The notes below the pieces were generated by a model. The model was not told the origin of the DNA, made no database searches, and worked only from the letters and a program-made list of their open reading frames with translations. 64,000 bases of DNA from an uncultured Bdellovibrionales bacterium (GTDB lineage Bacteria > Patescibacteriota > Minisyncoccia > Moranbacterales > UBA1568), in the NCBI GenBank assembly GCA_964500505.1, contig CAZCNN010000002.1:4081-68080 (forward strand), read 5' to 3'. This document shows positions 25,813-64,000 of this stretch, one piece after another. Positions within the stretch are counted from its first letter, which is position 1. The number at the start of each line of letters is the position of its first letter. A program made the position numbers and the translations under genes.

Positions 25813-26165
25813 AATGCTTTATCTAAGCCACAAGACTGGATTTTTCAGTGAAAATTTGATAATATGTAGAGGTGAGAACAATTTGAAAAAGTAGCCTAAA
25901 CCAGTAGCGATACTGGCATGGTGAAAAAGTCCAGTTAGACATAAAGATCCCATCGTATGGGGTGTCTAACTGGCCGTATCGGGAAACTGGTACGAGGAGC
26001 TTCGGCTTCTACCTATGCGGTGGGTTTTTTGCATTTATTTTTACAAAACTATGAAAGAAGATTTTTTTAATCCATTCGCCATGATATTTGGAGGGATACC
26101 GATTTCACTCGGTATATACGGTCTAATGACAAACGGCGAACAATGGTTCTCCTATATTCTGATTT

Positions 26166-36180: not shown

Positions 36181-36378
36181 ATGATAGATAATATGAAACT
36201 CCTTACGAGACAAGAAGTCGCAGCGCTGTTGCGAGTTGATCCTCGAACTGTTGAGCGATGGCTCCGAAGTGGGAAACTGAAGGGCTATAAGCTCGGTGAT
36301 GGTAAAACCGCTCCGTGGCGAATTGATGAAGCAGAGGTACAAAGGTTTCTGGAGAAAAATAATGGAAGAGACCTATGA
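36181..36378 (+). CDS. excisionase/MerR-type HTH protein (putative recombination directionality factor)
   Basis: LTRQEVAALLRVDPRTVERWLRSGKLKGYKLG matches the Xis-type HTH. Immediately upstream of, and overlapping by 4 nt, the large serine recombinase gene. Confidence 0.6.
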   Translation: MIDNMKLLTRQEVAALLRVDPRTVERWLRSGKLKGYKLGDGKTAPWRIDEAEVQRFLEKNNGRDL

Positions 36379-39108: not shown

Positions 39109-42100
39109 ATGACACAACTCGTGCAGTCAAAACAAAAGGAGAAAACACAATCAATTTTTCGGCGCTTTTTTACCAAGAAAGTGCTCGTTTTGCGTTGGCA
39201 GTTCAATCTCCTCAGTCTCGTGTTCTTGGGTGTCGGTGCGCTCGCGGGATTCTATCTGACCCTCTCGGGGGTTATCCCACATATCCTCGCTGCCGATACG
39301 ACGGATACCTGGGACTTCTCTGTCAGTGGGGACTATACCCCATCTGACTCGTCACTCCTTGAGGTGACATCATCGACTGCGCGACTCAAGGTCCAGAACT
39401 ATGCGACAGACGCGAATACCGCGGCCCTCTGGCACCTCGATGAATCAAGTGGCAACGCGACGGATAGCTCTGGCAATAGTAATACGGGGACAGTGGCCAA
39501 TGGCACCTATACCACCGGCAGTCTCAACAATGGACTGACATTCAACGGCTCCACGGCATCGCTTACGGCTGCGGACTCGAGCTCACTTTCACTCACTGGT
39601 GACTTTACTGTTGAGGCCTGGACCAAGTTTTCTTCATCATTCAGTACGACATCCAATCGGAACCGACAGGGCATCCTCGACAAGGGACCATATCAGATGT
39701 ACTACGATAACGAGTCGGGGAAAGTTGTGTTTGAGATGGCACCATCGTCAGCGAACGGCTGGGCTCAGGTGGCGGGGCCGGATATGCTCAACAACAACGG
39801 TGTATCGATCAACACCGAAACCAACCAAAGTTGGGATGCGAACAGTAAGAACTTCGTGTGGAAGCAGGTGGTGGTAGGGAGTGATATCTACGTCGCGCTC
39901 GGTAGTGCGACCACGGGGACGACGGTGACCGGTGACGCTGAAGTCTGGAAGTGTACCAGCTGTGATACCAGTCCGGCATGGTCCAAGATTGGTGGGGACG
40001 GACTGAACAGTAGTTGGGCCGATGGGACATACGAAGATGCATCGTCGATTGTCTCGGACGGGACCAATATCTATACCGGTATCGGTAACAGTTCGGGTGA
40101 AGCAGAAGTGTGGCGGTACGATGGATCATCGTGGACCAAAGTAGGAGGTGATACCGTCAACTCGAGCTGGCTCATCGTGGCTCCTGGTCCTTATGAGCGC
40201 GTGACGAGTATGGTCGCGGATGGGACCACCATTTATGCTGGCTTAGGAACGACAGCAAGCGACGCTGAAGTCTGGCGCTGTACAAATTGTGATAGTAGCC
40301 CGAGCTGGTCGAAGATTGGTGGTGATGGGACAGGATCTGGTGGGCAATCCTGGGCTACGGGATATGAAGAAGTGTCGGCTCTCACCATCGTGAATAGCAC
40401 GACACTTGCCGTTGGCCTCGGGACATCAGCTGGGGACGCCGAAGTTTGGACCTGTGCGACATCGTCGTGCGCGGTGACTTCTGGTTGGACCAAGCGTGGT
40501 GGGGACGCGACTGGCTCCGGTGGCCAGTCCTGGTCAAACGTGACAGATGAAATTCGCAGTCTCGCATCAAGTGGCACCGTCATCTATGTGGGTACGGGTG
40601 TGACAGCTGGCGAGGCCGATGTATGGCGCTGTGACCTCGGTGGTACCTGCACGACGACTTCGGGGTGGACTCAAGTCGGTGGCGATGCACTGAACTCGAG
40701 CTGGGCAGCCTCAACATATGAGCGGGTCTGGTCTCTGCTTGCCAGTGGCACGACTGTCTATGCGGGTCTAGGTGATACGGCCGGTGATGCTGAAGTTTGG
40801 CAGTGTACAAGCTGTGATGGTGGTAGTCCTGTATGGACGAAACTCGGTGGTGACGGTACCGGTATCAGTGGTCAGTCTTGGGGAAATACGACCGGTGCGT
40901 CATTTTTGTACGCAGCGAGCTTGTCGATGATCGGCAATAATATCTTTGTGGGAGCGAGCTCCGGAGCCGGGACCAGTGGCGCTGAGATGTGGCGTTGTGA
41001 TACGAGCGGGACCTGTAGTAACTCAGCTGGCTGGACAAGAATAGCTGGCGACTACCTCAATGCTAGTTGGGGAGTATATGGATTGAATGGTGTCATATCT
41101 ATGACCACAACGGGTGGTAAACTGTATGCCGGAACTGGAGATGATCAGGCGGCTGCAACATCCAATGGCAACGCGACGGTATGGGAATATGACGGTACGA
41201 GCTGGACCATGATTGGTGGTCAAGGAAAAAATAGTTCGTGGGCGTATGGCCACCCCACATCAACCGCACAGACAATCCGCTCGGTGACATCGATGACAGG
41301 ATACAATGGGACACTCATCGTGGGGCTCGGTGGTGGTACCGCTGGTGATGCCGAGGTCTGGAGCTGGAATGGGAGCGCCTGGACCAAGATTGGTGGCGAC
41401 GGGACCGGGACGGGCGGTCAATCCTGGGCTACTGGAACCAAACGTTCAGTCCCAGCGATGACAGTCGTCGGCTCGACTCTCTACGCGGGACTCCAAGGGA
41501 CGGCGGCCGGTGATGGCGAGATGTGGACCTGCGATCTCGCGGTCTCGTGTACGACGACCGCTGGTTGGACGCTCCGGGGCGGTGATGCGACGGGTGCTGG
41601 TGGGCAGAGTTGGAACAACACGACGTTTGAGGCCGTATGGAGCATGGCGGTCCGAGGTACGAGTCTGTATATCGGACTCGGCTCAAGTGCGGGGGACGCC
41701 GAAGTTTGGACCTGTGATACGGGCGCATCCTGCACTCAGACGGCTGGCTGGACCAAGCTCGGTGGCGATACCGTCAATTCAAGTTGGGCCAATAGTACGT
41801 ACGAGGAAGTGACGGCGCTCACATGGTACCGGGGCGAGCTCTATGCTGGTCTCGGAGCGAGTACGGGTGATGCCGAACTCTGGAAGTATAATGGGACCAA
41901 CTGGGGGAGTGCTGCCGTCGCTGGTGACGGACTGAATGGGAGTTGGACCGATACTCTCTACGAGCGAGTGAAGTCGCTTACCACGTATAATGGAGACCTT
42001 ATAGTGAGCTTGGGTGATGGTACCGGAGAAGGTGAAGTATGGCGGTACAATACGAGCACTTGGTCACGTATCGGTGGTGATGGTGCCAATTCCGGTTGGA

Positions 42101-45100
42101 CCAATATCGTCGAGCGCATCAGTGCTCTGGCAGTGTATAAAGGCAAACTCTATGCTGGGACAGGGCTGACCGCCAATAGCGATGCAACGATTTGGGCGTA
42201 TGGCGGAAATATTGTTCTTGAGTCGACCACAACGAGTCAAGATACCAGCTGGCACCATATTGCCGTGACGTATGAGGGGAGTGAACTGACGCTCTTTATC
42301 GATGGCATTGAAGATACGAGTGTGGCGACCACGGCTACGATGTCTGATACGGTCCATCCACTCCTCCTTGGGACCCAAGCGGGGTCGACCGTAGCGGGTC
42401 GTGCTCCCTCTAGCTTCACTGGAATGCTTGATGAGGTGCGCATTAGCAATATTGCCCGCTCGTCATTTACGACGACGCCATATACGAGTAGTCGAGTAGC
42501 AGTGAGACCGTCCTCGGCTGTGCGCCTCTCTGGAATCAAATCATGGGACACATTTACTACCACAGAGACAGCGAATGGGGGCACGATTACCTATCGACTT
42601 TCGGATGATGGTGGTACGACCTGGAAGTATTGGAATGGATCGGCGTGGGCCACATCATCAGGACTGACCGATGCGAATAGTGCGAGCACGGTCAACACCA
42701 ATATCGGTACTTTTCCGGTAACTGATGATGGATTTATGTGGCAGGCCGTCCTCCTCGGCAATGGCAATCAGTTGGTGACTTTAAATGAAGTGGTAATGGA
42801 GTCAACCTCTGATATTGTGGCTCCGACGGCGCCAGATACGCTCACGGCGCTCAATCAGAACGGGGGATTGACTTCACTCACGACCAATACCTGGTACACG
42901 TATACGGCACCGTACTTTAGCTGGAGCGGAGCGACGGATACCGGTGGATCAGGAGTCGGTGGGTACTATGTCTATTTTGGGACAGACAATACTGCTGAGC
43001 CATCGACCGCTGGGACCTTTCAGGTGGCAAGTACCTACGAACCCTCAAGTATGACCAGTGGTCAGACCTACTATCTCCGGATTCGAGCACGGGACAATGC
43101 TCAGAATACGAGCTCAGTCTACGCTGCTTTTATCTACAAACTCGACAGTACCGGACCACAGAATCCGACTGGTGTGACGGTGGCGCCGACGGGATATTCA
43201 CCGACCAATGATTTTACTTTCTTCTGGACTGCGACTGCGAGCGATGCCGCCTCTGGTGTCGCTGGCTACCAGTATCAGGTGGGAGCGTCGGTTAATCCGG
43301 GGAGCTGGTCATCAACGACGTCGAGTACGAGCGTCAATCTGCCAGGGGCGGCGTACCAGACTGGCGAAAACTTCTTTTACCTCCGGACCCTTGATAACGC
43401 CGGGAACGTGGCAAGTGTCAATGTCCAGGTTGCCTTTTACTATGCGGGGAGTGGCCCGACCGCTCCACAAAATGTCGATGTCACACCGGAAACGAATACC
43501 GCGAACTCCTTTGCCTTTTCCTGGGATGCCCCATCGAGTTATTCGGGTGATGCCGCTGATTTGACCTATTGTTACACCATCAATACCCTTCCATCAGAGA
43601 TTACCTGTAGTTTTACTTCAGCGGGAGCGACATCGCTCTCTGCTTCGGCTTTTGCCACCCAGGTAGGTGCCAACACGTTCTATGTGGTAGCTAAAAATGA
43701 TGATAGCGTCGGTGGAGCCATCAACTATGGAGCCTATGACAGCGTGACCTTTACGGCCAACACCAGTGCCCCGGGTATTCCCCTTAACGTGGAAATAGCT
43801 GATGTGTCGGTGAAGAGTACCAGCTCCTGGAAGATTGCCCTCTCGTGGGAGCCACCCTCGTCTGGGACGGTTGAGGATTATGAGATCTACCGCTCAACTG
43901 ATGGCACGACCTATACCTATTCGGCTGCGACCACCGGTATCGCTTTTGTAGACACCGGACTGGATCAGACCACCTACTACTACAAGGTCCGGGCCTGCGA
44001 CAACGTTCACAACTGTGGTTCGTTTAGTACCGCGGTTGAGCTTCTGCCGAGTGGTCGTTTTACCACGGCTCCAGAGCTCTCCTCTGAGCCAAAAGTAACT
44101 GCCATCACCACCCGGGCCGCGACCATCACCTGGAGCACGGATCGTACTTCAGATAGTAAGATTCAATATGGCAAGAGTGCCCGCTCATACCTGAGTGAAG
44201 AACCGAGCAATTCGGACCAACTCACTGATCACGAGATCCATCTGACCAACTTGTCACCAGGAACCAAGTACTATTTCAAAGCCAAGTGGACCGACGAAGA
44301 CGGTAACACCGGGGTATCATCGGAAGATAGTTTTGAGACCGCTCCGGCCCCAACTGTCACGGACCCGACCTTGAAGACCGCCGGACTTGAGGACGCGGTA
44401 CTTGAGTTTACGGTGCAAGACGCGAGTTCGGTCAAAATCTACTACGGCACGACGGCCGCTTTTGGTAGTATCAAAGAAATCGCCACCTCGACCACCAAGA
44501 CCACCTACAATGTCACCCTCGACAACCTCCTTGATGGGACCAAATATTACTACAAGATTAATACCCTTGATACTGAAGAAGAAGAGTATGATGGGAGCAC
44601 CCTCTCGTTTGAGACCTTGCCTCGACCAAAGATCTCCAACGTCCGGATTCAGCAGGTACGGGGATCAGCTCAGACTATTGTGCTTGTCACCTGGTCGACC
44701 AATACGGACACTTCGTCCATTGTGAGTTACTATCCCGAGGGCAAGCCAGAGGAACTCCTTGATGAGGTCAATGTGAAACTTCAGAAAGGGGAGCACCGGG
44801 TCCTGGTGCGTAATCTTCTCCCCCAGACTCCATACGTGCTCGTGGTGAAAGGACGAGATCGAGCGGGTAATGAAGCGGCGAGTGATTCTCAGCGTTTCAC
44901 GACGGCGACAGATACTCGAGCGCCCCAGGTGTCCGAGGTCAATGTCGAAGGAACAGTCTCGACCCGTGGCGGAGACAATACCGAAGCTGAAGCCGAAGCA
45001 CAACTGGTCATCTCGTGGACTACTGACGAACAATCGACTTCTCAGGTAGAATATGGAGAGGGGACTGGTTCGACGTATGCTCAGAAATCTCAAGAAGACA

Positions 45101-45294
45101 CGGGACTCGTCACTAACCACACTGTTATCATCTCCGGACTCACTCCTTCCAAGGTGTATCACCTCCGCATTGTTTCGCGTGATAAAGCAGGCAATGTAGG
45201 CAACTCTATCGATACAGTCGCGATTACACCCAAAGCCACCGCCAATGCCCTCGATCTCGTCATCACCAGCCTCCGCTCTATCCTCGGACAATAA
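39109..45294 (+). CDS. giant surface/secreted protein (2061 aa): N-terminal TM anchor, ~12 propeller-like repeats, LamG/concanavalin-like domain, multiple fibronectin type III domains
   Basis: N-terminal TM (LLSLVFLGVGALAGFYLTL). Repeated ~58-aa units carry GDAEVW(R/T)C...GGD....SW. LamG-like block LTLFIDGIEDT...LDEVRISN. FN3-like blocks YYLRIRARDNAQN, YYYKVRACDNVHN and KYYFKAKWTDEDGN. Putative extended -10 TGgTATAAT ~39045-39053. Confidence 0.75.
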   Translation: MTQLVQSKQKEKTQSIFRRFFTKKVLVLRWQFNLLSLVFLGVGALAGFYLTLSGVIPHILAADTTDTWDFSVSGDYTPSDSSLLEVTSSTARLKVQNYATDANTAALWHLDESSGNATDSSGNSNTGTVANGTYTTGSLNNGLTFNGSTASLTAADSSSLSLTGDFTVEAWTKFSSSFSTTSNRNRQGILDKGPYQMYYDNESGKVVFEMAPSSANGWAQVAGPDMLNNNGVSINTETNQSWDANSKNFVWKQVVVGSDIYVALGSATTGTTVTGDAEVWKCTSCDTSPAWSKIGGDGLNSSWADGTYEDASSIVSDGTNIYTGIGNSSGEAEVWRYDGSSWTKVGGDTVNSSWLIVAPGPYERVTSMVADGTTIYAGLGTTASDAEVWRCTNCDSSPSWSKIGGDGTGSGGQSWATGYEEVSALTIVNSTTLAVGLGTSAGDAEVWTCATSSCAVTSGWTKRGGDATGSGGQSWSNVTDEIRSLASSGTVIYVGTGVTAGEADVWRCDLGGTCTTTSGWTQVGGDALNSSWAASTYERVWSLLASGTTVYAGLGDTAGDAEVWQCTSCDGGSPVWTKLGGDGTGISGQSWGNTTGASFLYAASLSMIGNNIFVGASSGAGTSGAEMWRCDTSGTCSNSAGWTRIAGDYLNASWGVYGLNGVISMTTTGGKLYAGTGDDQAAATSNGNATVWEYDGTSWTMIGGQGKNSSWAYGHPTSTAQTIRSVTSMTGYNGTLIVGLGGGTAGDAEVWSWNGSAWTKIGGDGTGTGGQSWATGTKRSVPAMTVVGSTLYAGLQGTAAGDGEMWTCDLAVSCTTTAGWTLRGGDATGAGGQSWNNTTFEAVWSMAVRGTSLYIGLGSSAGDAEVWTCDTGASCTQTAGWTKLGGDTVNSSWANSTYEEVTALTWYRGELYAGLGASTGDAELWKYNGTNWGSAAVAGDGLNGSWTDTLYERVKSLTTYNGDLIVSLGDGTGEGEVWRYNTSTWSRIGGDGANSGWTNIVERISALAVYKGKLYAGTGLTANSDATIWAYGGNIVLESTTTSQDTSWHHIAVTYEGSELTLFIDGIEDTSVATTATMSDTVHPLLLGTQAGSTVAGRAPSSFTGMLDEVRISNIARSSFTTTPYTSSRVAVRPSSAVRLSGIKSWDTFTTTETANGGTITYRLSDDGGTTWKYWNGSAWATSSGLTDANSASTVNTNIGTFPVTDDGFMWQAVLLGNGNQLVTLNEVVMESTSDIVAPTAPDTLTALNQNGGLTSLTTNTWYTYTAPYFSWSGATDTGGSGVGGYYVYFGTDNTAEPSTAGTFQVASTYEPSSMTSGQTYYLRIRARDNAQNTSSVYAAFIYKLDSTGPQNPTGVTVAPTGYSPTNDFTFFWTATASDAASGVAGYQYQVGASVNPGSWSSTTSSTSVNLPGAAYQTGENFFYLRTLDNAGNVASVNVQVAFYYAGSGPTAPQNVDVTPETNTANSFAFSWDAPSSYSGDAADLTYCYTINTLPSEITCSFTSAGATSLSASAFATQVGANTFYVVAKNDDSVGGAINYGAYDSVTFTANTSAPGIPLNVEIADVSVKSTSSWKIALSWEPPSSGTVEDYEIYRSTDGTTYTYSAATTGIAFVDTGLDQTTYYYKVRACDNVHNCGSFSTAVELLPSGRFTTAPELSSEPKVTAITTRAATITWSTDRTSDSKIQYGKSARSYLSEEPSNSDQLTDHEIHLTNLSPGTKYYFKAKWTDEDGNTGVSSEDSFETAPAPTVTDPTLKTAGLEDAVLEFTVQDASSVKIYYGTTAAFGSIKEIATSTTKTTYNVTLDNLLDGTKYYYKINTLDTEEEEYDGSTLSFETLPRPKISNVRIQQVRGSAQTIVLVTWSTNTDTSSIVSYYPEGKPEELLDEVNVKLQKGEHRVLVRNLLPQTPYVLVVKGRDRAGNEAASDSQRFTTATDTRAPQVSEVNVEGTVSTRGGDNTEAEAEAQLVISWTTDEQSTSQVEYGEGTGSTYAQKSQEDTGLVTNHTVIISGLTPSKVYHLRIVSRDKAGNVGNSIDTVAITPKATANALDLVITSLRSILGQ
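39900..42100 (+). repeat. tandem degenerate ~175-nt (≈58-aa) coding repeats, ~12 copies, within the giant protein gene
   Basis: Recurrent GDAEVW-encoding 21-mers (ggtgacgctgaagtctgg / ggggacgccgaagtttgg ...) at ~175-nt intervals from ~39937 to ~42030. Confidence 0.6.
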
Positions 45295-56437: not shown

Positions 56438-57451
56438 ATGAACAATCACGTATTTTCCAGGAATCACTTTCTTCCCTTTACGACACTTATACTCTGTATC
56501 GGAGGCATGGTGATTTTCCGGTATTTTGAGAGCCCATCTTTTGTGTTTTCTCTCAAGATGCATGATATTATCACGGTTTTCCTCAGCGTTGTTATTGAAG
56601 CCTCGCCTTTTCTTCTCCTCGGATCACTGGTAGCGGTAATAGTGAGGAGAACATCTCTTATCTCTATCCTGCTCAGACGTATCCCGAAGAACCCTCTCTG
56701 GGGGCTTCCTGTTTCTGCCGCGCTCGGAACCCTCTTGCCAGTCTGCGAGTGTGGTAATATGCCGATTGCCCGTTCTCTGGTAAAAAGGGGGTTTCCGGCA
56801 CCCTACGCCACCACGTTTCTTTTTGCGGCCCCCATCCTGAACCCGGCGGTCTTCTTTTCTACCTGGGTCGCCTTTCGGGGTCAGCCAATATTCATAGCAG
56901 CTCGTTTTGCCTTGGGCTTTATCGTGGCTGTGGCAGTTGGTGCCTATGTCCTCTTCCAAGAAAAGCGAGGGGTCAAGATATGGAACGTGTCCTGCGACCT
57001 TTCACAGAAGATGCCTGCCGAAAAGGGCCACGATCACACCCATGAACATGGCACCTCGTTCTCTTCCCAGGTGTTCGGTGAGTTTCTTGCCATCTTTCCT
57101 TATCTTGTTATCGGAGCGTTGTTCACTGCTCTCTTCCAGGCCTACGTTCCAAGAGAGGTCTTTTTCAACTCTGATTTCGGCATCGCAATCGCCATTCTCT
57201 TCATGATGCTCTTTGCTTTCGTTATTTCTGTTTGCTCCAATACTGATGCTTTTCTCGCCCTTGGTTTTACCGGTATCATGCCAGGGGCTGCCCTCATCAG
57301 TTTCTTGGTTTTTGGAGCCATGATCGACGCCAAAAATGTCCTCATTTATAGTCGGATCTTCACTGTCCGGGGACTCTTACTCGTCTCCTTTTTTGTCGCC
57401 GAGCTGGTTTTTCTCCTCTCCCTTATTCTGCATAAGTTGAGCATCGTATGA
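56438..57451 (+). CDS. DUF318-family permease (PF03773-like, CxxC-containing)
   Basis: Multi-TM protein with LLPVCECGNMPIA. Start uncertain: a strong RBS AAAGGAGG serves an ATG at ~56426 in another frame (a 34-codon uORF). Confidence 0.6.
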   Translation: MNNHVFSRNHFLPFTTLILCIGGMVIFRYFESPSFVFSLKMHDIITVFLSVVIEASPFLLLGSLVAVIVRRTSLISILLRRIPKNPLWGLPVSAALGTLLPVCECGNMPIARSLVKRGFPAPYATTFLFAAPILNPAVFFSTWVAFRGQPIFIAARFALGFIVAVAVGAYVLFQEKRGVKIWNVSCDLSQKMPAEKGHDHTHEHGTSFSSQVFGEFLAIFPYLVIGALFTALFQAYVPREVFFNSDFGIAIAILFMMLFAFVISVCSNTDAFLALGFTGIMPGAALISFLVFGAMIDAKNVLIYSRIFTVRGLLLVSFFVAELVFLLSLILHKLSIV

Positions 57452-58128
57452 AATCAGAACGCGTACATTTTTTTCTTGCCTTGGCCGCGATCAACCTGTT
57501 CGGTCTGGCGCTTTTGTACCTTGCGAGTATCGAGAAACTTGGTATCTACATCCATCCATCTTCGCAGTGGTTTGTGGTGCTGACCGGCCTCATGTTTCTT
57601 TTTCTCAGTCTCCGCGGTCTTCCCAGAAGAGAAGCACTGGTTTTCGAACGGAGTAGTCTTTTTGGCATTCTCTTTCTGCTTGGGGTCGCCGTACTCATCT
57701 TGACAGTCAAGCCTGTTCCGCTTTCGGTTGAAACAGCGAAGACTAGGATCTCAAATGGTAGCAGTCCAGTCAGCGCTAAAAATGCGGAGCGCTTTGCTAC
57801 TCGGAAGACTTCGGACTTCGGGATTATCGATTGGCTCGCGGCCTTCTCCAGTCCAGAGACAGCGTATCGTTATGAAGATACGCCAGCTGATATCACGGGC
57901 TTTTTATTGGTGCAGGACAATCAGCCGATGGTGGGTCGGCTGGTTATTACCTGCTGCGGAGCAGATGCCCAACCGGCCGTTATTCCATTTCGTTATACCG
58001 GAGTTCTCCCAAAAGAGAATACGTGGATTCGTGTCAGTGGTACGATGCATGTCGTGGACACGAAACCTGTTCTCGAAGCGACTCGCCTTGAGATAATTCC
58101 TGAACCGAAGAATCCCTATGCCGAGTAG
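57448..58128 (+). CDS. TIGR03943-like partner protein of DUF318 permeases (N-terminal TM helices + C-terminal extracytoplasmic domain)
   Basis: Overlaps the permease stop by 4 nt. Two N-terminal TM helices and a C-terminal CCGAD-containing soluble domain, as in the two-gene DUF318/TIGR03943 arrangement. Confidence 0.5.
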   Translation: MKSERVHFFLALAAINLFGLALLYLASIEKLGIYIHPSSQWFVVLTGLMFLFLSLRGLPRREALVFERSSLFGILFLLGVAVLILTVKPVPLSVETAKTRISNGSSPVSAKNAERFATRKTSDFGIIDWLAAFSSPETAYRYEDTPADITGFLLVQDNQPMVGRLVITCCGADAQPAVIPFRYTGVLPKENTWIRVSGTMHVVDTKPVLEATRLEIIPEPKNPYAE

Positions 58129-59485
58129 AGTACTTGCCTCCATCGTGGTCGTTTTGCCACATCTCTTCCTGATGGGGCTGATTTTCTTGTTTCTTGCATT
58201 GCCGGAAGTCCCGCCGAGAGTCATCGCTGTGAAAGAGATGATTCGTGCAAACGAGTCGTTCTCGATTACCTTCAACAAACCGATTCGAACAGAGGGTTCG
58301 GAGGATAGGTTGGCCGTCTTAAAAAATGGAGAGAGGGTAGCCGGTACACTCAAAACGACGGCCACGACACTGTTTTTTTCTCCAGAAGAATCGTGGGAGA
58401 GTGGCCAAGAATATCGAGTCAAAATAGCGCCACTGCCAGCAGAACGTGGCGGTACTACGACGGAACCGATTGACCTCAGTCTGAGAATCGAAAAGGCAAG
58501 AGTCCTCTTTCTCAGTCCAGATAGTCGTCTTATGGAAGGCAATCCGGAAACAGGAGTAGCAGAACCAGTGACTCCCGAAGGTATCAATATCTTTTCTTTT
58601 TCTACGGGTATCAATGGCCATGTGGTCGCCCTGTATGGATTGAATGGAGATCGCTACAAGACCGGGGTCCTTTTGGGTGAGAAACAGGGTACTCATTATC
58701 GTCTCATGATGTCTCCAGTGGTTGAAACCCCGAGGTATTCCCAGGCCCTCCTCTGCGATGGGAGTCGGGCGCTTCTCCTGGTGTCCCAGGGTAGCCAGGG
58801 CGATCCCAGAGTCGAATATTTCACTCTTGATTGGGAGCGCCCGTTGAGTAAGGAGTCGCTTCAGGAATGGAAAATAGAAGAGACCGCGCTCTATAACGAC
58901 GGCGACCTCGCCTGTTCGGAGGATACCGCCCGTGTTCTCTATCGGAAATCAAGCGGTGCCTACGTGACGAACTTCTTAGGGGAGGAGGATGAGGATATCA
59001 TCGGTGTTTTCGATTCCGCCATCGGCTTTACTCCGAAAGATACGTCGATGCTGCTCCAGAAATCAATTACAGAAACCACGGCTGATGCCGACTATCGTTC
59101 GGAGCTTACCCTGTACCGGTCGGATGGTGCCAGCGTCACCCTCTCGACCCCAGATTCGCTCTTTGAGGAATCAAGTCTCAGTGGTACTGGTACATCCCTG
59201 TCCGTCTTATCCATCGAGGGTGAGAGCTATACGTCACGCATCGAAACCTACACGCTTGACGGAATGGCGTGGACTCCCAGAGAAACCGTGTCTCCTCCGC
59301 AGGGCAAGCGCATTCTCCATCACGATCTTTCTCTTGATGGGAATCTGGTCGCACTTCAAATTGAGCCTGGAGAAATGATGACGCGGGTTCCTATGGATTC
59401 TTCGCAGATTGTGCTGTGGGACTTCCGAAAAAAGCAATATCTTCCCTTTGAGTGGACGGGTAGGGAACCACAGTGGGAGCAGTAG
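58118..59485 (+). CDS. hypothetical membrane-anchored extracytoplasmic protein
   Basis: N-terminal TM (VVLPHLFLMGLIFLFLAL). No motif recognised. Overlaps the upstream gene by 11 nt. Confidence 0.45.
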   Translation: MPSRVLASIVVVLPHLFLMGLIFLFLALPEVPPRVIAVKEMIRANESFSITFNKPIRTEGSEDRLAVLKNGERVAGTLKTTATTLFFSPEESWESGQEYRVKIAPLPAERGGTTTEPIDLSLRIEKARVLFLSPDSRLMEGNPETGVAEPVTPEGINIFSFSTGINGHVVALYGLNGDRYKTGVLLGEKQGTHYRLMMSPVVETPRYSQALLCDGSRALLLVSQGSQGDPRVEYFTLDWERPLSKESLQEWKIEETALYNDGDLACSEDTARVLYRKSSGAYVTNFLGEEDEDIIGVFDSAIGFTPKDTSMLLQKSITETTADADYRSELTLYRSDGASVTLSTPDSLFEESSLSGTGTSLSVLSIEGESYTSRIETYTLDGMAWTPRETVSPPQGKRILHHDLSLDGNLVALQIEPGEMMTRVPMDSSQIVLWDFRKKQYLPFEWTGREPQWEQ

Positions 59486-59534
59486 TGCTGTTTGCGACCA
59501 ACAGTCTGAGAGAAATGGGGTTTGCTAAGGTGTC

Positions 59535-60560
59535 TCAGTGATGATGCTGATGGTCATGCGCTGGGGTGTATCGAATAATGTCACGACTGCTGCCAAATAC
59601 CTCTCGTACCAGTTCTTGGTATGATCCGATGTGTTCGCCCATAAAAACAAGTCGTGGAGTAATGTTTTGTTGTTTCAGAGGAAAGAGTCGAAATTCACCG
59701 TATGCATAGTTGAGGACGAATAATGATCCGTCAATATTGAGAATACCTTTGATCCGGTAGAATTTCTTTGCCGGGAACGATTCGAGTGAATACGTGATTG
59801 CTTCAAGTCGGAATTGTCGTGTCGGCTCTAGCTCGATGAGATCTACCTCGAATGACTGATGGTTTTCCTCGACTTCTTTTTCCTCTTCCTTCACGCTTTC
59901 AGCTGTTATGAAGAGTTTGCTGTCGAGTCCGAAGATAACTTGAGGCGATACGTATCCCTCAGCAGTCTTGATCTTTGGGGCATCAGGATTGAGTTCGTAG
60001 ACATCATCCAAAGTATCTTCGAGGGTGCTTTCTGGGATGCCCTCATGCTTATTGATGAGGATCATGTCGGTATATTTCGCCTGGAGCTTGGCTGTGTAGC
60101 TCTTGTCTTTGTAGCCGGAGAAGTTCTTAGCGTCAATTACTGTGATGACACCATCCACATAGAGCTTTTTATTTTTTCGGATTTCCCAGACAATCGGTGC
60201 AGGTGCGGCCGACCCGGAAGTTTCGATGATGATTCGGCCTGGATTTGTGAGGAGAAGCTCCTCGAGAGCCTGTTGTAACTGTCCAACGAGAACATGACAG
60301 ATACAGCCCTGAAGCATCTCTTTGGTCGTAGCGACATGAGTCTCTTGTCCGAGAAGCGAATCAACCTCGGTGTTGCCGAACTCATTCTTAAGCCACGCAA
60401 TTCGATATTCTTTTGGTAGATCTTTGATGAGATTGAGGATGAGTGTTGTTTTTCCAGCCCCGAGAAAGCCTGTGATAATAGTGACAGGGATCGCTCCTTG
60501 ATAGGCGATTTTCGGTTGCGTCAACAGTGCTTTTATATCTTGTTCCGTAGGCATAGGCAT
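59535..60560 (-). CDS. COG0523 (CobW/YjiA/ZigA-like) G3E-family GTPase with His-rich C-terminus
   Basis: Walker [19 protein letters not shown]-type motif GCICHV. C-terminal HDHQHHH. Confidence 0.75.
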   Translation of the reverse strand: MPMPTEQDIKALLTQPKIAYQGAIPVTIITGFLGAGKTTLILNLIKDLPKEYRIAWLKNEFGNTEVDSLLGQETHVATTKEMLQGCICHVLVGQLQQALEELLLTNPGRIIIETSGSAAPAPIVWEIRKNKKLYVDGVITVIDAKNFSGYKDKSYTAKLQAKYTDMILINKHEGIPESTLEDTLDDVYELNPDAPKIKTAEGYVSPQVIFGLDSKLFITAESVKEEEKEVEENHQSFEVDLIELEPTRQFRLEAITYSLESFPAKKFYRIKGILNIDGSLFVLNYAYGEFRLFPLKQQNITPRLVFMGEHIGSYQELVREVFGSSRDIIRYTPAHDHQHHH

Positions 60561-60564
60561 GTTG

Positions 60565-61947
60565 TTATTTTTCTAATGGAGGGTTTTGACACGAAAGAAA
60601 CCCCTGAGTGAGTAGGATGCGGTTGAGATTTTTTCCAATGAAAACAATAGTGCTTTTTCGGTCTTCGTCGGCTTTCCAGGCTCGTCCCGGTTGGATCGTA
60701 AAAAGCATATGAACCCCTTGGAGCACGACCTGTCGATGTTCGCCGGCAATGGACAGGATACCTTTGTATCGGTACAAATCATTTCCGAACATTCGGATGA
60801 TGCTTTCGATATAGTAGATGAAGTTTTCTGCAAGCAAAGGAGCGGTGGTTTCAGCACCGACCGAAGAGACAGTGCTATCGTGCTCATGCTGTGGCCTGAA
60901 CGTATGGCTCATGGTTGAGGCAAGAGGAGTATGGCCATGAGTGAGTTTAAGACTGAATTCTTCTGGGAGGTGTTCAGTGAAGAGGAGGTATGCTCCGGTG
61001 CTTGATATTTCGAGTGGGTAAGATGATTGTTTCGAGAAATCAAGTATGAACGGGGCTTGGCGTGGCGTGAGCGCGTTGACGGTCTCGTTTGCATCGGTGG
61101 GCATTGAAAAGAGTACAGCAGCGGGATTTGCGATGGCTGTGAGTTTCTCAAGTGAAGTGACCTCATCAGCTTTCAGGCAGAGTATACGCATCTTGGTCTC
61201 CTCTCCATGTGGCTGACCGGAGAGACTGTAGGTTCCGGTCTCAAGTTGGTAGATCCCGGCCCACTCGAACGGGTATTCGATTTCAAGAAAACGAGGATCG
61301 ATTTCAAGTGCTCGCTGGACATCGAAACCGCCGACGGTGAAGATTTTTTCGATTGGGATATCGGCATTTCTCGTTTCGTAGATGGTTGCAAATTTATTGA
61401 TGCCGGCAATTTTTTCTCGGACTGCGGCGAGCTCTTCATCTGAAACGAGGTCAATTTTATTAATGATGATGATGTCTGCAAAGGCAATCTGATCCTTAGC
61501 CTCTGGTGTTGAATCAAGATGGCCGGGGGTGTGTTTGGCATCGACGAGCGCGATAATAGCATCGAGATCCACGTGCTTGGAGAGATCAGGATCTGTCATA
61601 AATGTCTGTGCGACGGGCGATGGATCTGCCAGACCAGTAGTCTCAATCAGTATGTGTTCCGGGGGATTGGGGAGAGCGAGGAGCTGTTTAATAATTCGAA
61701 TTAAGTCGCCACGTACAGTGCAGCAAATGCAGCCATTGTTCATTTCCACCACTTCTTCGTTTTCACGGATAACTAAGTCTTGATCAATTCCAACTTCCCC
61801 AAATTCATTTTCGATTACGGCGATTCGTTTTCCGTGCTGTTCCTTGAGGATGCGGTTGAGGAGCGTCGTCTTGCCGGCGCCAAGAAAGCCCGTTAATACA
61901 GTGATGGGAATTTTCTGCGATTGACGATTATGTGCTTGGTTGTTCAT
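60565..61947 (-). CDS. COG0523 (CobW-like) G3E-family GTPase with CobW_C domain
   Basis: [15 protein letters not shown]. Canonical [11 protein letters not shown]. Long C-terminal domain. Confidence 0.8.
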
Positions 61948-61981
61948 ATATGTAGGACTGTCTCTAGTAAATCAGAGAATT

Positions 61982-63010
61982 TTAATGATGAGCGGAAAGG
62001 GCATCCTGTATTGACTGAAGCTGTGTCAGGAGAACGTCATGAAATTGAACTTTCTCTGAAGGACTCAGTCTCTGCTTTGACTGGTCAAGATGTGTCCAAT
62101 AGGTGAGCAGAGGATCTTGAACAGCTCTTGAAAAAGATGCTGTAACCGGCCAAGGAAAGGGTCTGTGGGAAACTATTGAACGTAGATGGATGATGGCATC
62201 TTCCGATGATTGTCCCCCGGAGAGAAAAACAATGCCGCCGGTAGTAGGGGGGACAAATGCCTGCAAGCAAGTAGCCGTCGTTTTGCCAATCAATGTCGCA
62301 CTTGCTTTTTCAACACCATCTTTTCCTGGTAGGGCCATAGATGTTTTGAGTATGAGTCCTGGGAGGAGAATCTCTGATGTCTTGAGAGTGAAAAAGAGTT
62401 TTTCCAAGACATGTTCCATGGTTTCTCTCGTATTCTCTAATAAGTGCTCTCCTTCGAAGAGTACCTCTGGTTCAACGATGGGCACCATACCATGCTTTTG
62501 TGACAGTTCGGCAAAGCGTGCGAGGTCGCCAATATTTTTCTCCCAAATCACCTGCGGCGATAAGAGGGTTTTGTTCATTTCGTCGACACGTACCGGAAAA
62601 ACTGATCGCCATTTTGTAAAATGTACTCCGGCGCGTGACCATCGTTTGAGGCGATCATCGAGGTCTTCGATACCTACAGTATACTGCTCAGTATTAAATC
62701 CAGGATAGGGAGCAAGGCCACGATCGACTTTGAGTCCAATAAGAATATTTTGATCCTGGCAATATTTAGGGACGGCTTGTCCATGTATTTCCTGCTCTAG
62801 AGTTTCCTCATGGAAGATAATGCCACTGACAAAATCACAAAGACCAGGTGTCTCAAGTATTTGAGACCGATATGACATTCTCTCCTCGGTAGTTGAATGC
62901 AATAGACCGAATTGAGCACAGCGTCGTTGAAATGATTGAGGGCTTTCGTCGAGCGCGAGTAGCATACGGTTTGGACGCATGAGCTCTCGAGTAGTAGCGA
63001 TAATTTCCAT
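61982..63010 (-). CDS. fructose-bisphosphate aldolase, class I (Schiff-base, metal-independent)
   Basis: LLALDES, IIFHEETL, GLKVDRG, FTKWR, GMVPIVEPEVL and FLSGGQS blocks match class I FBA. The ORF track extends to 63184; the ATG at 63010 (MEIIATTREL) matches the family N-terminus. Confidence 0.8.
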   Translation of the reverse strand: MEIIATTRELMRPNRMLLALDESPQSFQRRCAQFGLLHSTTEERMSYRSQILETPGLCDFVSGIIFHEETLEQEIHGQAVPKYCQDQNILIGLKVDRGLAPYPGFNTEQYTVGIEDLDDRLKRWSRAGVHFTKWRSVFPVRVDEMNKTLLSPQVIWEKNIGDLARFAELSQKHGMVPIVEPEVLFEGEHLLENTRETMEHVLEKLFFTLKTSEILLPGLILKTSMALPGKDGVEKASATLIGKTTATCLQAFVPPTTGGIVFLSGGQSSEDAIIHLRSIVSHRPFPWPVTASFSRAVQDPLLTYWTHLDQSKQRLSPSEKVQFHDVLLTQLQSIQDALSAHH

Positions 63011-63014
63011 ACTC

Positions 63015-64000
63015 TTATTCCTTTGCATTTGTTGGTTTGACCAAGGCAGCATTGAGTTCGGCGGCAATCGTCGCTTCATCCATATCAATGCCAATAAAGA
63101 CGATGCTTTGCTCCGGATGAATTTCTCCGTCTGGACTCTGTTCCCAGTGGCCATAGGGCTCGAGATGAATAATGTTGCCTGCATGATTCCAAAGGAGGGC
63201 TACATCGGGCTTGGCATCGGTCCAGGCGAATCCTTTTGACCGCAGAACTGATCGTAGCTTCCCTCCATTCAGTAACTCCATGAGTGCTCCGTCGTGGAAC
63301 GGTTGTTTGGATGTGAAGACGAAGCTCTTGATTCCGTACGATTCGGTTTCTGGAGTATGTTCGCCGCGAATCTCCTTGAGCCACCCAGGGTTTTGAGAGG
63401 CTTTTTCCATATCAAAGAGCTGGGTATTCAGGATTGATTTCAGATCAATATCACCCTGACGAATAGGATAGATGATAGCGTCCGGGTTGAGTTGTTTTAT
63501 CACGGCTTTAACTCGGCTGAGTTCACTTTCTGATACGAGATCGGTTTTCGAAAGGAGAATAATATTGGCAAACTCAATCTGATCAGTCAGAAGATGAACG
63601 ATAGGTCGGTCATCTTCATTTGATACTCCGAGTTTTCTTTCGGCGAGCGTTGATTCATCACCATAATGGTGAAAGAAATTTTTGGCATCAACAACTGTTA
63701 CCATAGTGTCGAGGCGCGCGATATCATTGAGAGAGTGACCATCTTCATCGGTAAAGGTAAATGTTTCAGCGACTGGGAGCGGCTCGGATATGCCGCTTGA
63801 TTCGATAAGGATAGCGTCAAAACGGTCGGCTTGAGCGAGTTTCGTCACTTCTTCCAAGAGATCTTCTCGGAGAGTGCAGCAGATGCAGCCGTTAGACATT
63901 TCGACTAACTTTTCCTCAACACGATCCAGCTGAGCTTCGCCTTGTTTGACAATAGCAGCATCGATGTTGATAACGCTCATGTCATTGACGATAACGGCGA
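63015..64000 (-). CDS. COG0523 (CobW-like) GTPase, third paralogue, N-terminus beyond window
   Basis: NGCICCTLREDL motif. C-terminal CobW_C-like domain. The ORF runs off the window end. Confidence 0.7.
   Translation of the reverse strand, partial: AVIVNDMSVINIDAAIVKQGEAQLDRVEEKLVEMSNGCICCTLREDLLEEVTKLAQADRFDAILIESSGISEPLPVAETFTFTDEDGHSLNDIARLDTMVTVVDAKNFFHHYGDESTLAERKLGVSNEDDRPIVHLLTDQIEFANIILLSKTDLVSESELSRVKAVIKQLNPDAIIYPIRQGDIDLKSILNTQLFDMEKASQNPGWLKEIRGEHTPETESYGIKSFVFTSKQPFHDGALMELLNGGKLRSVLRSKGFAWTDAKPDVALLWNHAGNIIHLEPYGHWEQSPDGEIHPEQSIVFIGIDMDEATIAAELNAALVKPTNAKE

What the first reader, a model, noticed from the sequence alone, without database searches (positions are those of the whole stretch)
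59535..64000. Operon of three COG0523 zinc-chaperone-like GTPase paralogues interleaved with a metal-independent class I fructose-bisphosphate aldolase
COG0523 proteins (ZigA/YciC/ZagA/Zng1) are zinc-starvation metallochaperones. Bacteria usually use the Zn-dependent class II FBA, whereas the embedded enzyme is the Schiff-base class I type (FLSGGQS, active-site Lys block). This looks like a zinc-sparing module: a metal-free aldolase co-expressed with Zn-trafficking GTPases. Three tandem paralogues is unusual. The first has a His-rich tail and a variant GCICHV motif.
Basis: inference. Interest (0 to 1): 0.6.

Follow-up and report, generated by a model that had tools for sequence, protein, structure and literature searches.

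The report
Zinc-starvation gene cassette in Moranbacteria
An uncultivated Moranbacteria (CPR) bacterium carries a strain-variable seven-gene cassette, probably repressed by zinc, that joins three different COG0523 zinc-chaperone GTPases to a metal-free class I aldolase and an extra methionine aminopeptidase, most likely to keep sugar metabolism and protein maturation going when zinc is scarce.

Summary
On the minus strand of 59535-64000 lie COG0523-C, COG0523-B, a catalytically intact class I FBA, and COG0523-A, which the window end cuts. Contigs 100% identical to the window extend it and show a seven-gene string: YpdA-like flavoprotein, SBF-like transporter, type I methionine aminopeptidase, A, FBA, B, C. 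About 2.5 kb upstream of this string lies a Fur-family gene fused to a zinc-type ZnuA/AdcA-ZnuC-ZnuB uptake operon. A 7-1-7 palindrome, TGCAACT-N-AGTTGCA, sits 15 nt before the first cassette gene. It also fills the -35/-10 spacer of the Fur-family promoter in every related lineage, and it is absent from the 64-kb window itself. The whole 7.7-kb cassette is missing from sister strains that are 94-99% identical, so this aldolase is accessory rather than housekeeping. The nearest class I FBAs (about 43% identity) sit in ordinary carbon-metabolism operons. The best reading is a Zur-type zinc-starvation cassette with a zinc-sparing aldolase. Two things remain untested: whether the genome has a class II FBA, and whether the operator responds to zinc. 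It is a new variant of the known Zur/COG0523 cluster with substitute enzymes. The aminopeptidase gene next to a ZigA-like GTPase gene is the most interesting by-product.

The parts
63015..64000 (-). COG0523-A, a ZigA-like G3E GTPase. These are the 3' 327 codons; the first 36 codons lie beyond the window end. The full gene is 363 aa at L001 7842-8933.
   Evidence: The cobW and CobW_C domains are present. NCBIfam ZigA scores 513.8 bits against a cutoff of 600. The motif is GCICC. L001 is 100% identical to the window.
61982..63010 (-). Class I (Schiff-base, metal-independent) fructose-bisphosphate aldolase, 342 aa. It starts 4 nt after the stop codon of COG0523-A.
   Evidence: PF00274 scores 249 bits and NCBIfam FrucBisAld_I 284 bits against a cutoff of 250. 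Catalytic residues align with 1a5c. dN/dS is 0.15 against the L007 orthologue. Only two 90% clusters of this lineage exist among 5.8 billion proteins, and all other hits are at most 44% identical.
60565..61947 (-). COG0523-B, a YjiA-like G3E GTPase, 460 aa. It has a conserved beta-rich insert of about 130 aa (EYPFEW motif) and an HxH motif before CobW_C.
   Evidence: Domain and family matches are. The AF2 model has pLDDT 84 and its best structural match is YjiA 1nij/4ixm.
59535..60560 (-). COG0523-C, 341 aa, the last gene of the cassette. It has CxCH instead of CxCC, NKHE instead of NKxD, and a C-terminal His tail.
   Evidence: The CxCH motif and the His tail are conserved across the nearest Moranbacteria clade, while more distant members, including eukaryotic ones, have CxCC. 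In L019/L020 this gene alone sits divergent from zur-znuABC across the box.
59486..64000 (-). The in-window part of the strain-variable 7.7-kb cassette. The cassette runs from window 59486 to about 67170-67200 in extrapolated coordinates (L001 about 4752/4782 to 12463).
   Evidence: Sister strains L012, L013 and L016, with 94-99% nt identity in the flanks, have 31-62 bp in its place.
56438..59485 (+). A convergent three-gene unit: ArsP_1-family permease (56438-57451), TIGR03943/DUF1980 permease subunit (57448-58128) and a Big_5-like 455-aa protein (58118-59485). It is a probable metal-transport adjunct of the same island.
   Evidence: Family matches are. In relative L021 these three genes follow COG0523-B and COG0523-C on the same strand, downstream of the box. 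No box lies upstream of them in the window.

Best explanation
The region is the 3' half of an accessory zinc-starvation cassette in a Candidatus Moranbacteria (CPR/Patescibacteria) genome.

**Proposed mechanism**
1. A Fur-family repressor, encoded about 2.5 kb upstream of the cassette and fused to a zinc-type ZnuA/AdcA-ZnuC-ZnuB importer operon, acts as a probable Zur.
2. When zinc is sufficient it binds the 7-1-7 palindrome TGCAACT-N-AGTTGCA at four promoters: its own, the divergent CbiA-like/His-rich membrane protein pair, and the cassette promoter.
3. When zinc is scarce, repression is lifted and the seven cassette genes are transcribed as one unit: YpdA-like flavoprotein, SBF-like transporter, type I methionine aminopeptidase, COG0523-A, class I FBA, COG0523-B and COG0523-C.
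4. The three COG0523 GTPases, which come from three subfamilies, allocate the remaining zinc to priority clients. The co-encoded aminopeptidase is the obvious candidate client, by analogy with eukaryotic ZNG1-METAP1.
5. The Schiff-base aldolase does the FBP aldolase reaction without metal. It thereby replaces or relieves a zinc-dependent class II enzyme.

**Shown here**
- Gene content, motifs and domain matches.
- The zinc-type importer.
- Position and conservation of the palindrome.
- The accessory status of the cassette.
- Purifying selection on the four core genes.

**Inferred**
- That the Fur-family protein binds the palindrome and senses zinc.
- That the seven genes are co-transcribed.
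- That a class II FBA exists in the genome.
- The identity of the chaperone clients.
For: **Extension of the window.** Contigs 100% identical to the window over 13.4 kb show the seven-gene string with gaps of 4-69 bp. Next to it lie FUR, a substrate-binding protein, ABC_tran and ABC-3.

**Zinc specificity of the importer.** The binding protein best matches B. subtilis YcdH/ZnuA (225 bits) and AdcA (199 bits). It has an HEEHEEHEEHEEHE loop and the three-His ligand set.

**The palindrome.**
- L001 has four copies with at most 1 mismatch, and 0 of 100 shuffles reach the observed count.
- The 64-kb window and the unrelated loci have none.
- One copy is 15 nt upstream of the first cassette gene.
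- One copy fills the spacer of the TTGACA-17-TATACT promoter of the CbiA-like operon, and another fills the spacer of the zur promoter.
- Upstream of zur in six loci from four lineages, the only conserved block is TTGAC-(2)-box-(G/T)ATAAT.
- In L019/L020, where Fur is the only regulator nearby, the box still lies between zur and COG0523-C.

**Accessory status.**
- The cassette is absent from three independent assemblies that encode the identical Fur protein.
- One strain has a 2-bp deletion in the FBA gene only.

**The aldolase itself.**
- Its nearest homologues (43% identity) sit in GAPDH-RpiB-FBA-Rpe-transketolase operons.
- Class I FBA loci in three other genomes have no COG0523 gene within 10 kb.
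- Its catalytic residues are intact.
- dN/dS is 0.04-0.15 for the four core genes.

**Literature.**
- Zur-regulated clusters of COG0523 genes with zinc-independent paralogues are an established pattern (PMC2770081).
- In S. aureus, the class I aldolase FdaB replaces the metal-dependent FbaA under metal starvation (PMC9973326).
Against: - No class II FBA could be looked for in this genome. FBA is patchy in CPR, so cassette-less strains may simply lack any aldolase.
- The Fur-family protein is equidistant from the Fur, PerR and Zur models. All scores are far below cutoffs, so zinc sensing rests on context alone.
- The palindrome resembles no published Zur box that I know of (from memory, not tested).
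- The cassette promoter has only a weak -35 element (and my reading).
- In relative L007 the A-FBA-B-C core has no box directly upstream. It follows a terminator-like hairpin after the box-controlled 167-aa gene.
- No expression data exist.
- The roles of the flavoprotein and the SBF-like transporter are unexplained.
Confidence: 0.6

Rival explanations
1. Housekeeping reading. The class I FBA is simply this organism's only glycolytic aldolase and sits next to the metal genes by chance. There would be no isozyme switching.
For: Some CPR lineages use class I FBA as their ordinary enzyme, within carbon-metabolism operons (and the Saccharimonadales names). I could not show that a class II FBA is present.
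Against: The gene is missing, together with the whole cassette, from sister strains 94-99% identical, and it is frameshifted in another strain. It keeps its place between two COG0523 genes in a relative that is 78% identical at the protein level. A housekeeping glycolytic gene placed behind a repressor operator shared with a zinc importer would be odd.
Confidence: 0.1
2. Metal-excess or mismetalation reading. The cassette would protect against toxic metals or metalloids (Ni, Co, Cd, As). The metal-free aldolase would bypass the class II enzyme, which is a known target of nickel poisoning, and the transporters would act as exporters.
For: There are weak similarities to ACR3 (59 bits), ArsO (44 bits), ArsP_1 and SO_0444 Cu/Zn efflux (63 bits). 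[quoted passage not shown]
Against: All of these similarities are far below the family cutoffs. The operator is shared with a high-affinity zinc uptake operon. That implies induction under starvation, which is the opposite of a detoxification regulon. No ArsR/MerR/CzrA-type sensor gene is present in the locus.
Confidence: 0.1
3. The palindrome and the Fur-family protein respond to another signal (Fe, Mn or peroxide). Alternatively, the palindrome is bound by a different regulator. In either case the cassette would not be zinc-regulated.
For: The Fur-family protein scores best against Fur and PerR models (83 and 73 bits) and only 46 bits against Zur. ABC-3/ZnuA-family importers also carry Mn and Fe.
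Against: The binding protein has the His/Glu-rich loop and three-His site of zinc-specific ZnuA/AdcA, and it ranks YcdH and AdcA far above the Mn proteins. COG0523-A is closest to the ZigA model at 514 bits. The box co-occurs with the Fur-family gene in every lineage, including the one where no other candidate regulator is nearby.
Confidence: 0.15
4. The aldolase homologue has a changed function: another ketose-bisphosphate substrate, a moonlighting role, or a role as a partner of COG0523-A. This would explain why it has diverged so far from all other class I FBAs.
For: It is at most 44% identical to anything outside its own small clade. It is the fastest-evolving gene of the core, at 78% against 88-92% amino-acid identity and dN/dS 0.15. 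Its C-terminal region does not match the family model. Its start lies 4 nt after the stop of COG0523-A.
Against: All catalytic and phosphate-binding residues that I checked are conserved, and it passes the NCBIfam equivalog cutoff. Nothing in the locus points to another sugar pathway.
Confidence: 0.1

Closest known systems
Zur-regulated COG0523 (YciC/ZigA/ZagA) gene clusters with zur, znuABC and zinc-independent paralogues of zinc enzymes (Haas et al. 2009, PMC2770081)
   Same: A Fur-family repressor gene and a znu-type importer lie next to COG0523 genes. A palindromic operator sits at their promoters. Co-located genes could substitute for metal-dependent enzymes. Several COG0523 subfamilies can fall under one regulator.
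   Different: The nine substitute families listed there (HisI, PyrC, Cam, HemB, CysRS, ThrRS, AmiA, QueD, DksA, plus FolE2) include neither an aldolase nor an aminopeptidase. Here the substitute is a non-homologous analogue (class I for class II), not a paralogue. Three COG0523 genes sit in one operon. The operator sequence is different. The host is a CPR bacterium, and the unit is a strain-variable cassette.
Staphylococcus aureus FdaB/FbaA aldolase pair (PMC9973326)
   Same: A metal-independent class I aldolase functionally replaces the metal-dependent class II enzyme during metal starvation.
   Different: There the limiting metal is manganese, regulation involves ArlRS and unknown factors, and no COG0523 gene or Fur-family operator is linked. 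The aldolase belongs to the other class I family. Here the context is zinc, and the function has not been tested.
Eukaryotic ZNG1-METAP1 metallochaperone-client pair (reviewed in PMC11672702)
   Same: A COG0523 GTPase gene is genetically associated with a type I methionine aminopeptidase gene under zinc limitation. Here the two genes are 55 bp apart in one string.
   Different: The bacterial aminopeptidase (258 aa) has no N-terminal zinc-finger domain, and COG0523-A has no CPxLxP motif. Any interaction would therefore use another interface. The review states that there is so far no evidence for a bacterial MAP-COG0523 dependency.
Cupriavidus metallidurans CobW1/CobW2/CobW3 (three COG0523 paralogues in zinc handling; from my own knowledge)
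   Same: Several non-redundant COG0523 proteins in one organism are tied to the zinc-starvation response.
   Different: To my knowledge those genes are dispersed and only partly Zur-regulated. Here three subfamilies are strung together in a single cassette.

Membership tests
COG0523 / G3E P-loop GTPases (PF02492 + PF07683) | N-terminal cobW/HypB/UreG nucleotide-binding domain with a Walker A motif GxxGxGKT | tested here: met
   PF02492 scores 125-202 bits for A, B and C. GFLGAGKTT is present in all three.
COG0523 / G3E P-loop GTPases (PF02492 + PF07683) | CxCC metal-binding motif | tested here: inconclusive
   A has GCICC and B has GCICC, so both meet it. C has GCICH and does not. The CxCH form is conserved in the nearest Moranbacteria clade of the C subfamily, while more distant members have CxCC.
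COG0523 / G3E P-loop GTPases (PF02492 + PF07683) | G4 guanine-specificity motif NKxD | tested here: inconclusive
   B has NKID and A has SKTD. C and its whole subfamily have NKHE/NKxE. The nucleotide preference of C is therefore open.
COG0523 / G3E P-loop GTPases (PF02492 + PF07683) | C-terminal CobW_C domain | tested here: met
   A scores 73 bits and B 69.5 bits. C scores 24 bits, just above the cutoff of 22.
ZigA (NCBIfam NF038288 equivalog) | Whole-protein score at or above the curated cutoff of 600 bits | tested here: not met
   A scores 513.8 bits, so it is ZigA-like and not filed as ZigA. B scores 171 bits and C 62 bits.
Class I fructose-bisphosphate aldolase (PF00274 / NF033379) | Family score above the curated cutoffs | tested here: met
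   PF00274 scores 249 bits (cutoff 22) and NF033379 scores 284 bits (cutoff 250).
Class I fructose-bisphosphate aldolase (PF00274 / NF033379) | Schiff-base lysine and catalytic Asp, Lys, Glu, plus phosphate-binding Ser and Arg | tested here: met
   The alignment to 1a5c shows DES, KVD, KWR, EPE, LKtsM, FLSGGQS and SRA all conserved.
Class I fructose-bisphosphate aldolase (PF00274 / NF033379) | Metal-independent FBP cleavage activity | not testable with these tools
   This needs an enzyme assay with and without EDTA.
Zur regulon | Fur-family repressor gene linked to a zinc-specific uptake system | tested here: met
   The FUR gene overlaps the gene for the binding protein. That protein best matches YcdH/ZnuA and AdcA and has a His-rich loop.
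Zur regulon | Conserved palindromic operator overlapping the promoters of the regulated genes, including the cluster in question | tested here: met
   A 7-1-7 palindrome is found at four promoters. It is conserved in four lineages and absent elsewhere. That the Fur-family protein binds it is inferred.
Zur regulon | Sequence assignment of the repressor to Zur rather than Fur, PerR or Mur | tested here: inconclusive
   The best NCBIfam hits are Fur at 83 bits, PerR at 73 bits and Zur at 46 bits. All are far below their cutoffs, and the PDB hits are equally mixed.
Zur regulon | Zinc-dependent repression | not testable with these tools
   This needs EMSA with and without Zn, or transcript data.
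Zinc-sparing isozyme replacement | A zinc-dependent counterpart (class II FBA) encoded in the same genome | not testable with these tools
   The genome is not in the genome collection. There is none in the 64-kb window. The only support is indirect: most CPR bacteria have class II, and sister strains lack the class I gene.
ZNG1-METAP1-type chaperone-client pair | CPxLxP motif in the GTPase and a zinc-finger domain in the aminopeptidase that mediate binding | tested here: not met
   The MAP is a 258-aa catalytic domain only, and A starts directly with the P-loop region. Only gene adjacency supports a functional link.

The most novel reading that the evidence does not exclude
The cassette would be a self-contained, gain-and-loss 'zinc-famine kit' of a CPR bacterium with two novel features. 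First, a ZigA-like COG0523 GTPase would metalate a dedicated bacterial methionine aminopeptidase, making it the first prokaryotic counterpart of ZNG1-METAP1. Second, a Zur-type repressor would switch the cell from a zinc-dependent class II aldolase to a metal-free class I aldolase. The repressor would use a previously undescribed operator, TGCAACT-N-AGTTGCA.
Probability: 0.35. Interest if true: 0.7.

Novelty: new variant of a known kind. Interest (0 to 1): 0.55.

Why it matters
Zur-controlled clusters that pair COG0523 chaperones with zinc-independent substitute enzymes are a textbook zinc-sparing strategy. Neither an aldolase class switch nor a methionine aminopeptidase has been reported in one.

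If the reading holds, three things follow:

- **Zinc sparing would reach central carbon metabolism.** It would do so through a non-homologous analogue rather than a paralogue.
- **An open question would become testable.** A 2024 review explicitly asks whether bacterial MAP depends on a COG0523 chaperone. This cassette offers a concrete gene pair to test.
- **It would say something about CPR ecology.** Even organisms with genomes of about 1 Mb would be investing in a swappable metal-starvation module, which suggests zinc is a real selective pressure in their habitats.

The natural strains with and without the cassette provide a ready-made comparison.

Tried and rejected
**Searches that led nowhere**
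- The genome collection scan with the FBA did not find this organism. It returned only three distant class I FBA loci with no COG0523 gene nearby.
- A Pfam survey of essentially all large ORFs of the window found no class II FBA. It found only PGI, phosphoglucomutase and unrelated genes.
- Literature searches for COG0523 or the Zur regulon together with class I or bisphosphate aldolase gave nothing relevant. Searches for DUF1980, TIGR03943 and YcgQ also gave nothing relevant.
- Rfam found no riboswitch or other regulatory RNA in the cluster.
- Foldseek on a confident model of COG0523-B returned only YjiA and other G3E GTPases. The fold of its 130-aa insert was not identified.

**Ideas considered and dropped**
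- *A box upstream of the ArsP_1 permease unit in the window.* Only a degenerate inverted repeat is there, CAAC-5-GTTG, with the wrong spacing. I did not count it.
- *A box directly upstream of COG0523-A in L007.* None is present. I noted an AGAAT-8-ATTCT repeat near a TATAAT but did not consider it convincing.
- *The three GTPases as tandem duplicates.* They are only 28-41% identical and have distinct best-matching families.
- *A mobile-element origin for the cassette.* No integrase, transposase or flanking repeats lie at the junctions, and GC is only slightly lower than in the flanks, 47.8% against 50.5-52.3%. Deletion in some strains and acquisition in others are both possible. A degenerate box remnant in the cassette-less strains slightly favours loss.

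Full report
**1. The observation**

The minus strand of 59535-64000 holds four closely spaced genes.

- **COG0523-C** (59535-60560, 341 aa) has a cobW domain, a weak CobW_C domain, GCICHV in place of CxCC, and an HDHQHHH C-terminus.
- **COG0523-B** (60565-61947, 460 aa) has both domains and a canonical GCICC.
- **The class I fructose-bisphosphate aldolase** really starts at 63010 (342 aa). The 400-aa ORF in the mechanical list overlaps the upstream gene.
- **COG0523-A** starts at 63015 and runs off the window end.

The aldolase passes the NCBIfam equivalog cutoff, 284 bits against 250. It keeps every catalytic and phosphate-binding motif when aligned to Plasmodium aldolase 1a5c, including the Schiff-base lysine. 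The description is therefore correct, with one small correction: the gene with the His tail is the last one transcribed, not the first.

**2. Extending the window**

An exact-protein look-up found many public contigs carrying COG0523-B. L001 is 100% identical to the window over the 13,436 overlapping bases, so it can stand in for the sequence beyond 64000. A window coordinate equals 71948 minus the L001 coordinate.

On the same strand, upstream of COG0523-A (363 aa in full) and separated by gaps of 6-69 bp, lie three more genes:

- A 381-aa YpdA-like flavoprotein that ends in SCCGGGCGC.
- A 329-aa SBF/ACR3-like membrane transporter.
- A 258-aa type I methionine aminopeptidase. It scores 249 bits on TIGR00500 against a cutoff of 171, and all five metal ligands can be read in the sequence.

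Further upstream, on the opposite strand, the order is: a CbiA-like P-loop ATPase, an SCO5389-family protein, a 101-aa protein, a 144-aa Fur-family regulator, a substrate-binding protein, an ABC ATPase and an ABC-3 permease.

The binding protein best matches B. subtilis YcdH/ZnuA (225 bits) and pneumococcal AdcA (199 bits). It carries an HEEHEEHEEHEEHE loop and the three-histidine ligand set of zinc-specific members. The importer is therefore a zinc importer, and the Fur-family gene that overlaps it is a probable Zur. On sequence alone, however, the regulator is equidistant from Fur, PerR and Zur.

**3. A candidate operator**

Reading the intergenic DNA showed a perfect 7-1-7 palindrome, TGCAACTTAGTTGCA, 15 nt before the start codon of the flavoprotein gene, the first gene of the string. 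A pattern search found four copies with at most one mismatch in L001:

| Position in L001 | Location |
|---|---|
| 2241 | 14 nt before the Fur-family start codon |
| 4060 and 4098 | between the divergent CbiA-like gene and a 178-aa His-rich membrane protein gene |
| 4770 | head of the cassette |

None of 100 shuffles reached the observed number. The 64-kb window has none.

The consensus promoter scan placed the box at 4098 inside the spacer of an 11/12 promoter, TTGACA-17-TATACT. It placed the box at 2241 inside the spacer of TTGACT-17-TAATAT.

The boxes recur at the same relative positions in every related locus I fetched. They are absent from unrelated loci.

I aligned the 200 nt upstream of the Fur-family gene from six loci representing four lineages. 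The only conserved block is TTGAC-(2 nt)-TGCAACTNAGTTGC-(G/T)ATAAT. This is a textbook footprint of a repressor site embedded in a promoter.

In L019/L020 the neighbourhood contains no other regulator, yet the box still sits between the Fur-family gene and COG0523-C. The Fur-family protein is therefore the best candidate for the binding factor. That it binds, and that it senses zinc, are inferences.

**4. The cassette is accessory**

I looked up the identical Fur protein. It returned contigs with the seven-gene string (L011, L014, L015, L018). It also returned three independent assemblies without it: L012 from NCBI GCA_013565695.1, L013 from ENA and L016 from Logan.

BLAST shows that the flanks are 94-99% identical and that 7.7 kb (L001 about 4752/4782 to 12463) is replaced by 31-62 bp. 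The left junction lies at the box and promoter. The right junction lies 50 bp after the stop codon of COG0523-C. Cassette-less strains keep a degenerate remnant of the box.

One strain that is 98.9% identical has a 2-bp deletion splitting only the aldolase gene. An assembly error cannot be excluded for that case.

The class I aldolase is therefore not an indispensable housekeeping gene of this species. By the same logic the aminopeptidase must be a second copy, because MAP is essential in bacteria (established knowledge).

**5. How the locus was assembled**

GroEL places the organism in Candidatus Moranbacteria / Moraniibacteriota, at 83-85% identity to named members. Related loci form a series:

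| Locus | Arrangement |
|---|---|
| L019/L020 | znuCBA-zur, box, COG0523-C, relA |
| L021 | zur ... CbiA-like, box, 167-aa membrane protein, B, C, ArsP_1 permease, DUF1980, Big_5 protein, all on one strand |
| L007 | 167-aa membrane protein, A, FBA, B, C, relA |
| Window | 178-aa membrane protein, box, flavoprotein, SBF, MAP, A, FBA, B, C, then convergent Big_5, DUF1980, ArsP_1, then relA |
| Complete Moraniibacteriota genome (L022) | a C homologue alone, with no box |

From this series:

- COG0523-C is the ancestral Zur-linked chaperone of the clade.
- A and FBA travel as a pair, 4 nt apart.
- The slot between zur and relA is a hot spot where zinc-related genes accumulate and are lost.

Between the window and L007, the four core genes are under purifying selection. 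dN/dS is 0.07 for A, 0.15 for FBA, 0.08 for B and 0.04 for C, with dS near saturation.

**6. The three GTPases**

They are 28-41% identical to each other and differ in kind.

- **A** is closest to the ZigA model, at 514 bits against a cutoff of 600. I call it ZigA-like and do not file it as ZigA.
- **B** is closest to the YjiA model and to YjiA structures. It belongs to a subfamily of roughly twenty 50%-identity clusters that share a beta-rich insert of about 130 aa with an EYPFEW motif, and an HxH motif before CobW_C.
- **C** belongs to a subfamily common in Patescibacteria, with homologues at 42-46% identity in chytrid fungi and algae. Its nearest Moranbacteria clade uniformly has CxCH instead of CxCC and a C-terminal His tail. 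The whole subfamily has NKxE instead of NKxD.

**7. The aldolase in context**

Among 5.8 billion clustered proteins, only its own cluster and the L007 orthologue (78%) are close. Everything else is at most 44% identical.

The two nearest homologues whose contigs I fetched sit in GAPDH-RpiB-FBA-Rpe-transketolase operons, which is ordinary carbon metabolism. Three class I FBA loci from other genomes have no COG0523 gene or MAP within 10 kb. The linkage to zinc genes is therefore specific to this small clade.

According to Jaffe et al. [quoted passage not shown]

I could not test whether this genome has a class II enzyme. The organism is not in the genome collection, and the window contains none. 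The window does encode PGI and phosphoglucomutase.

**8. Mechanism proposed**

- With zinc present, the Fur-family repressor occupies the palindromes and shuts off the importer, its own gene and the cassette.
- Under zinc starvation, all of these are expressed.
- The importer scavenges zinc.
- The COG0523 proteins route the remaining zinc to priority clients. The co-encoded MAP is the obvious candidate, by analogy with ZNG1-METAP1.
- The Schiff-base aldolase removes one abundant zinc enzyme from the cell's zinc budget.

The steps shown and the steps inferred are listed under the best explanation. I put about 0.6 on this reading.

The rivals each have some support but fit the regulatory context and the strain polymorphism less well. 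They are the housekeeping aldolase, the metal-excess protection cassette, a non-zinc signal or a different regulator, and a changed aldolase function.

**9. Comparison with what is known**

The pattern matches the Zur/COG0523 clusters with substitute enzymes defined by Haas et al. 2009. That paper lists nine paralogue families plus FolE2, and mentions neither aldolase nor aminopeptidase.

The closest functional precedent for the aldolase is S. aureus FdaB replacing FbaA under manganese starvation. Its authors speculate that class I enzymes might serve under zinc limitation elsewhere (PMC9973326).

A 2024 review states that there is so far no evidence that bacterial MAP depends on a COG0523 protein, and calls the question worth investigating (PMC11672702).

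Searches of the held literature found no report of a class I FBA in a Zur regulon or next to a COG0523 gene. Subscription-only papers are not covered by that search.

**10. Verdict**

The zinc interpretation is supported by independent context. The specific 'replacement of class II FBA' step remains to be shown.

It is a new variant of a known kind. The regulatory and physiological logic is familiar. The novel components are a non-homologous aldolase analogue, a MAP copy, three COG0523 subfamilies in one transcription unit, a new operator sequence, a CPR host, and cassette-like gain and loss.

I score interest at 0.55. A metal-homeostasis specialist would find the MAP/ZigA-like pairing and the aldolase switch noteworthy and directly testable in vitro, but the overall principle is not surprising.

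Noticed in passing
L001 7010-7786 (about window 64162-64938, just beyond the window end): A second-copy type I methionine aminopeptidase with all five metal ligands lies 55 bp upstream of the ZigA-like COG0523-A in the same string. This is a possible bacterial counterpart of the eukaryotic ZNG1-METAP1 pair, which a 2024 review says has not yet been seen in bacteria.
   Followed up: partly
L001 4799-7003 (beyond the window end): The first two cassette genes encode a YpdA/ArsO-like flavoprotein ending in a Cys-rich tail, SCCGGGCGC, and an SBF/ACR3-like transporter. The tail is reminiscent of the C-terminal redox centres of large thioredoxin reductases. Their role in a zinc cassette is unexplained.
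   Followed up: no
L012, L013 and L016 compared with L001 4752-12463; window 59486 onward: The whole 7.7-kb cassette is a presence/absence polymorphism among strains 94-99% identical. The junctions are clean, no mobility genes are present, and a degenerate operator remnant is left in the strains without the cassette.
   Followed up: yes
L025 4412-5438: In one strain that is 98.9% identical, the aldolase gene carries a 2-bp deletion that splits it into two ORFs, while all other cassette genes are intact. This is either pseudogenisation or an assembly error.
   Followed up: partly
window 59535-60560 and the homologues in alignment A1: The COG0523-C subfamily replaces the guanine-specificity motif NKxD with NKxE. 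It has homologues at 42-46% identity in chytrid fungi and green algae. The Moranbacteria clade additionally changes CxCC to CxCH and adds a His tail.
   Followed up: partly
window 60565-61947, residues about 225-350: COG0523-B carries a conserved beta-rich insert of about 130 aa (EYPFEW motif) between the GTPase and CobW_C domains. About twenty protein clusters share it. Its fold and role were not identified.
   Followed up: partly
L001 4149-4685 (beyond the window end); L007 8198-8701: A 167-178-aa membrane protein with 12 histidines and no family match is divergently transcribed from the CbiA-like operon across two operator copies. It always precedes the COG0523 genes and may be a new zinc-related membrane protein.
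   Followed up: no
window about 14000-38000: This is a low-GC island (37-47% against about 52%). It holds a GmrSD-like nuclease, a type I restriction-modification system (HsdM, HsdS, an SMC-like 959-aa protein, HsdR), glycosyltransferases, an HTH protein and a serine recombinase at 36375-38033. It is probably an integrated defence island.
   Followed up: no
window 25893-26010 (+): There is an Rfam match to LOOT RNA (RF03000), 80 bits against a gathering score of 46. It lies just after the type I restriction gene.
   Followed up: no
window 39109-45294 (+): A 2061-aa protein with fibronectin-III, laminin-G and purple-acid-phosphatase-N domains is followed by an ABC ATPase and an FtsX/MacB-type permease. 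It is probably a giant surface protein.
   Followed up: no
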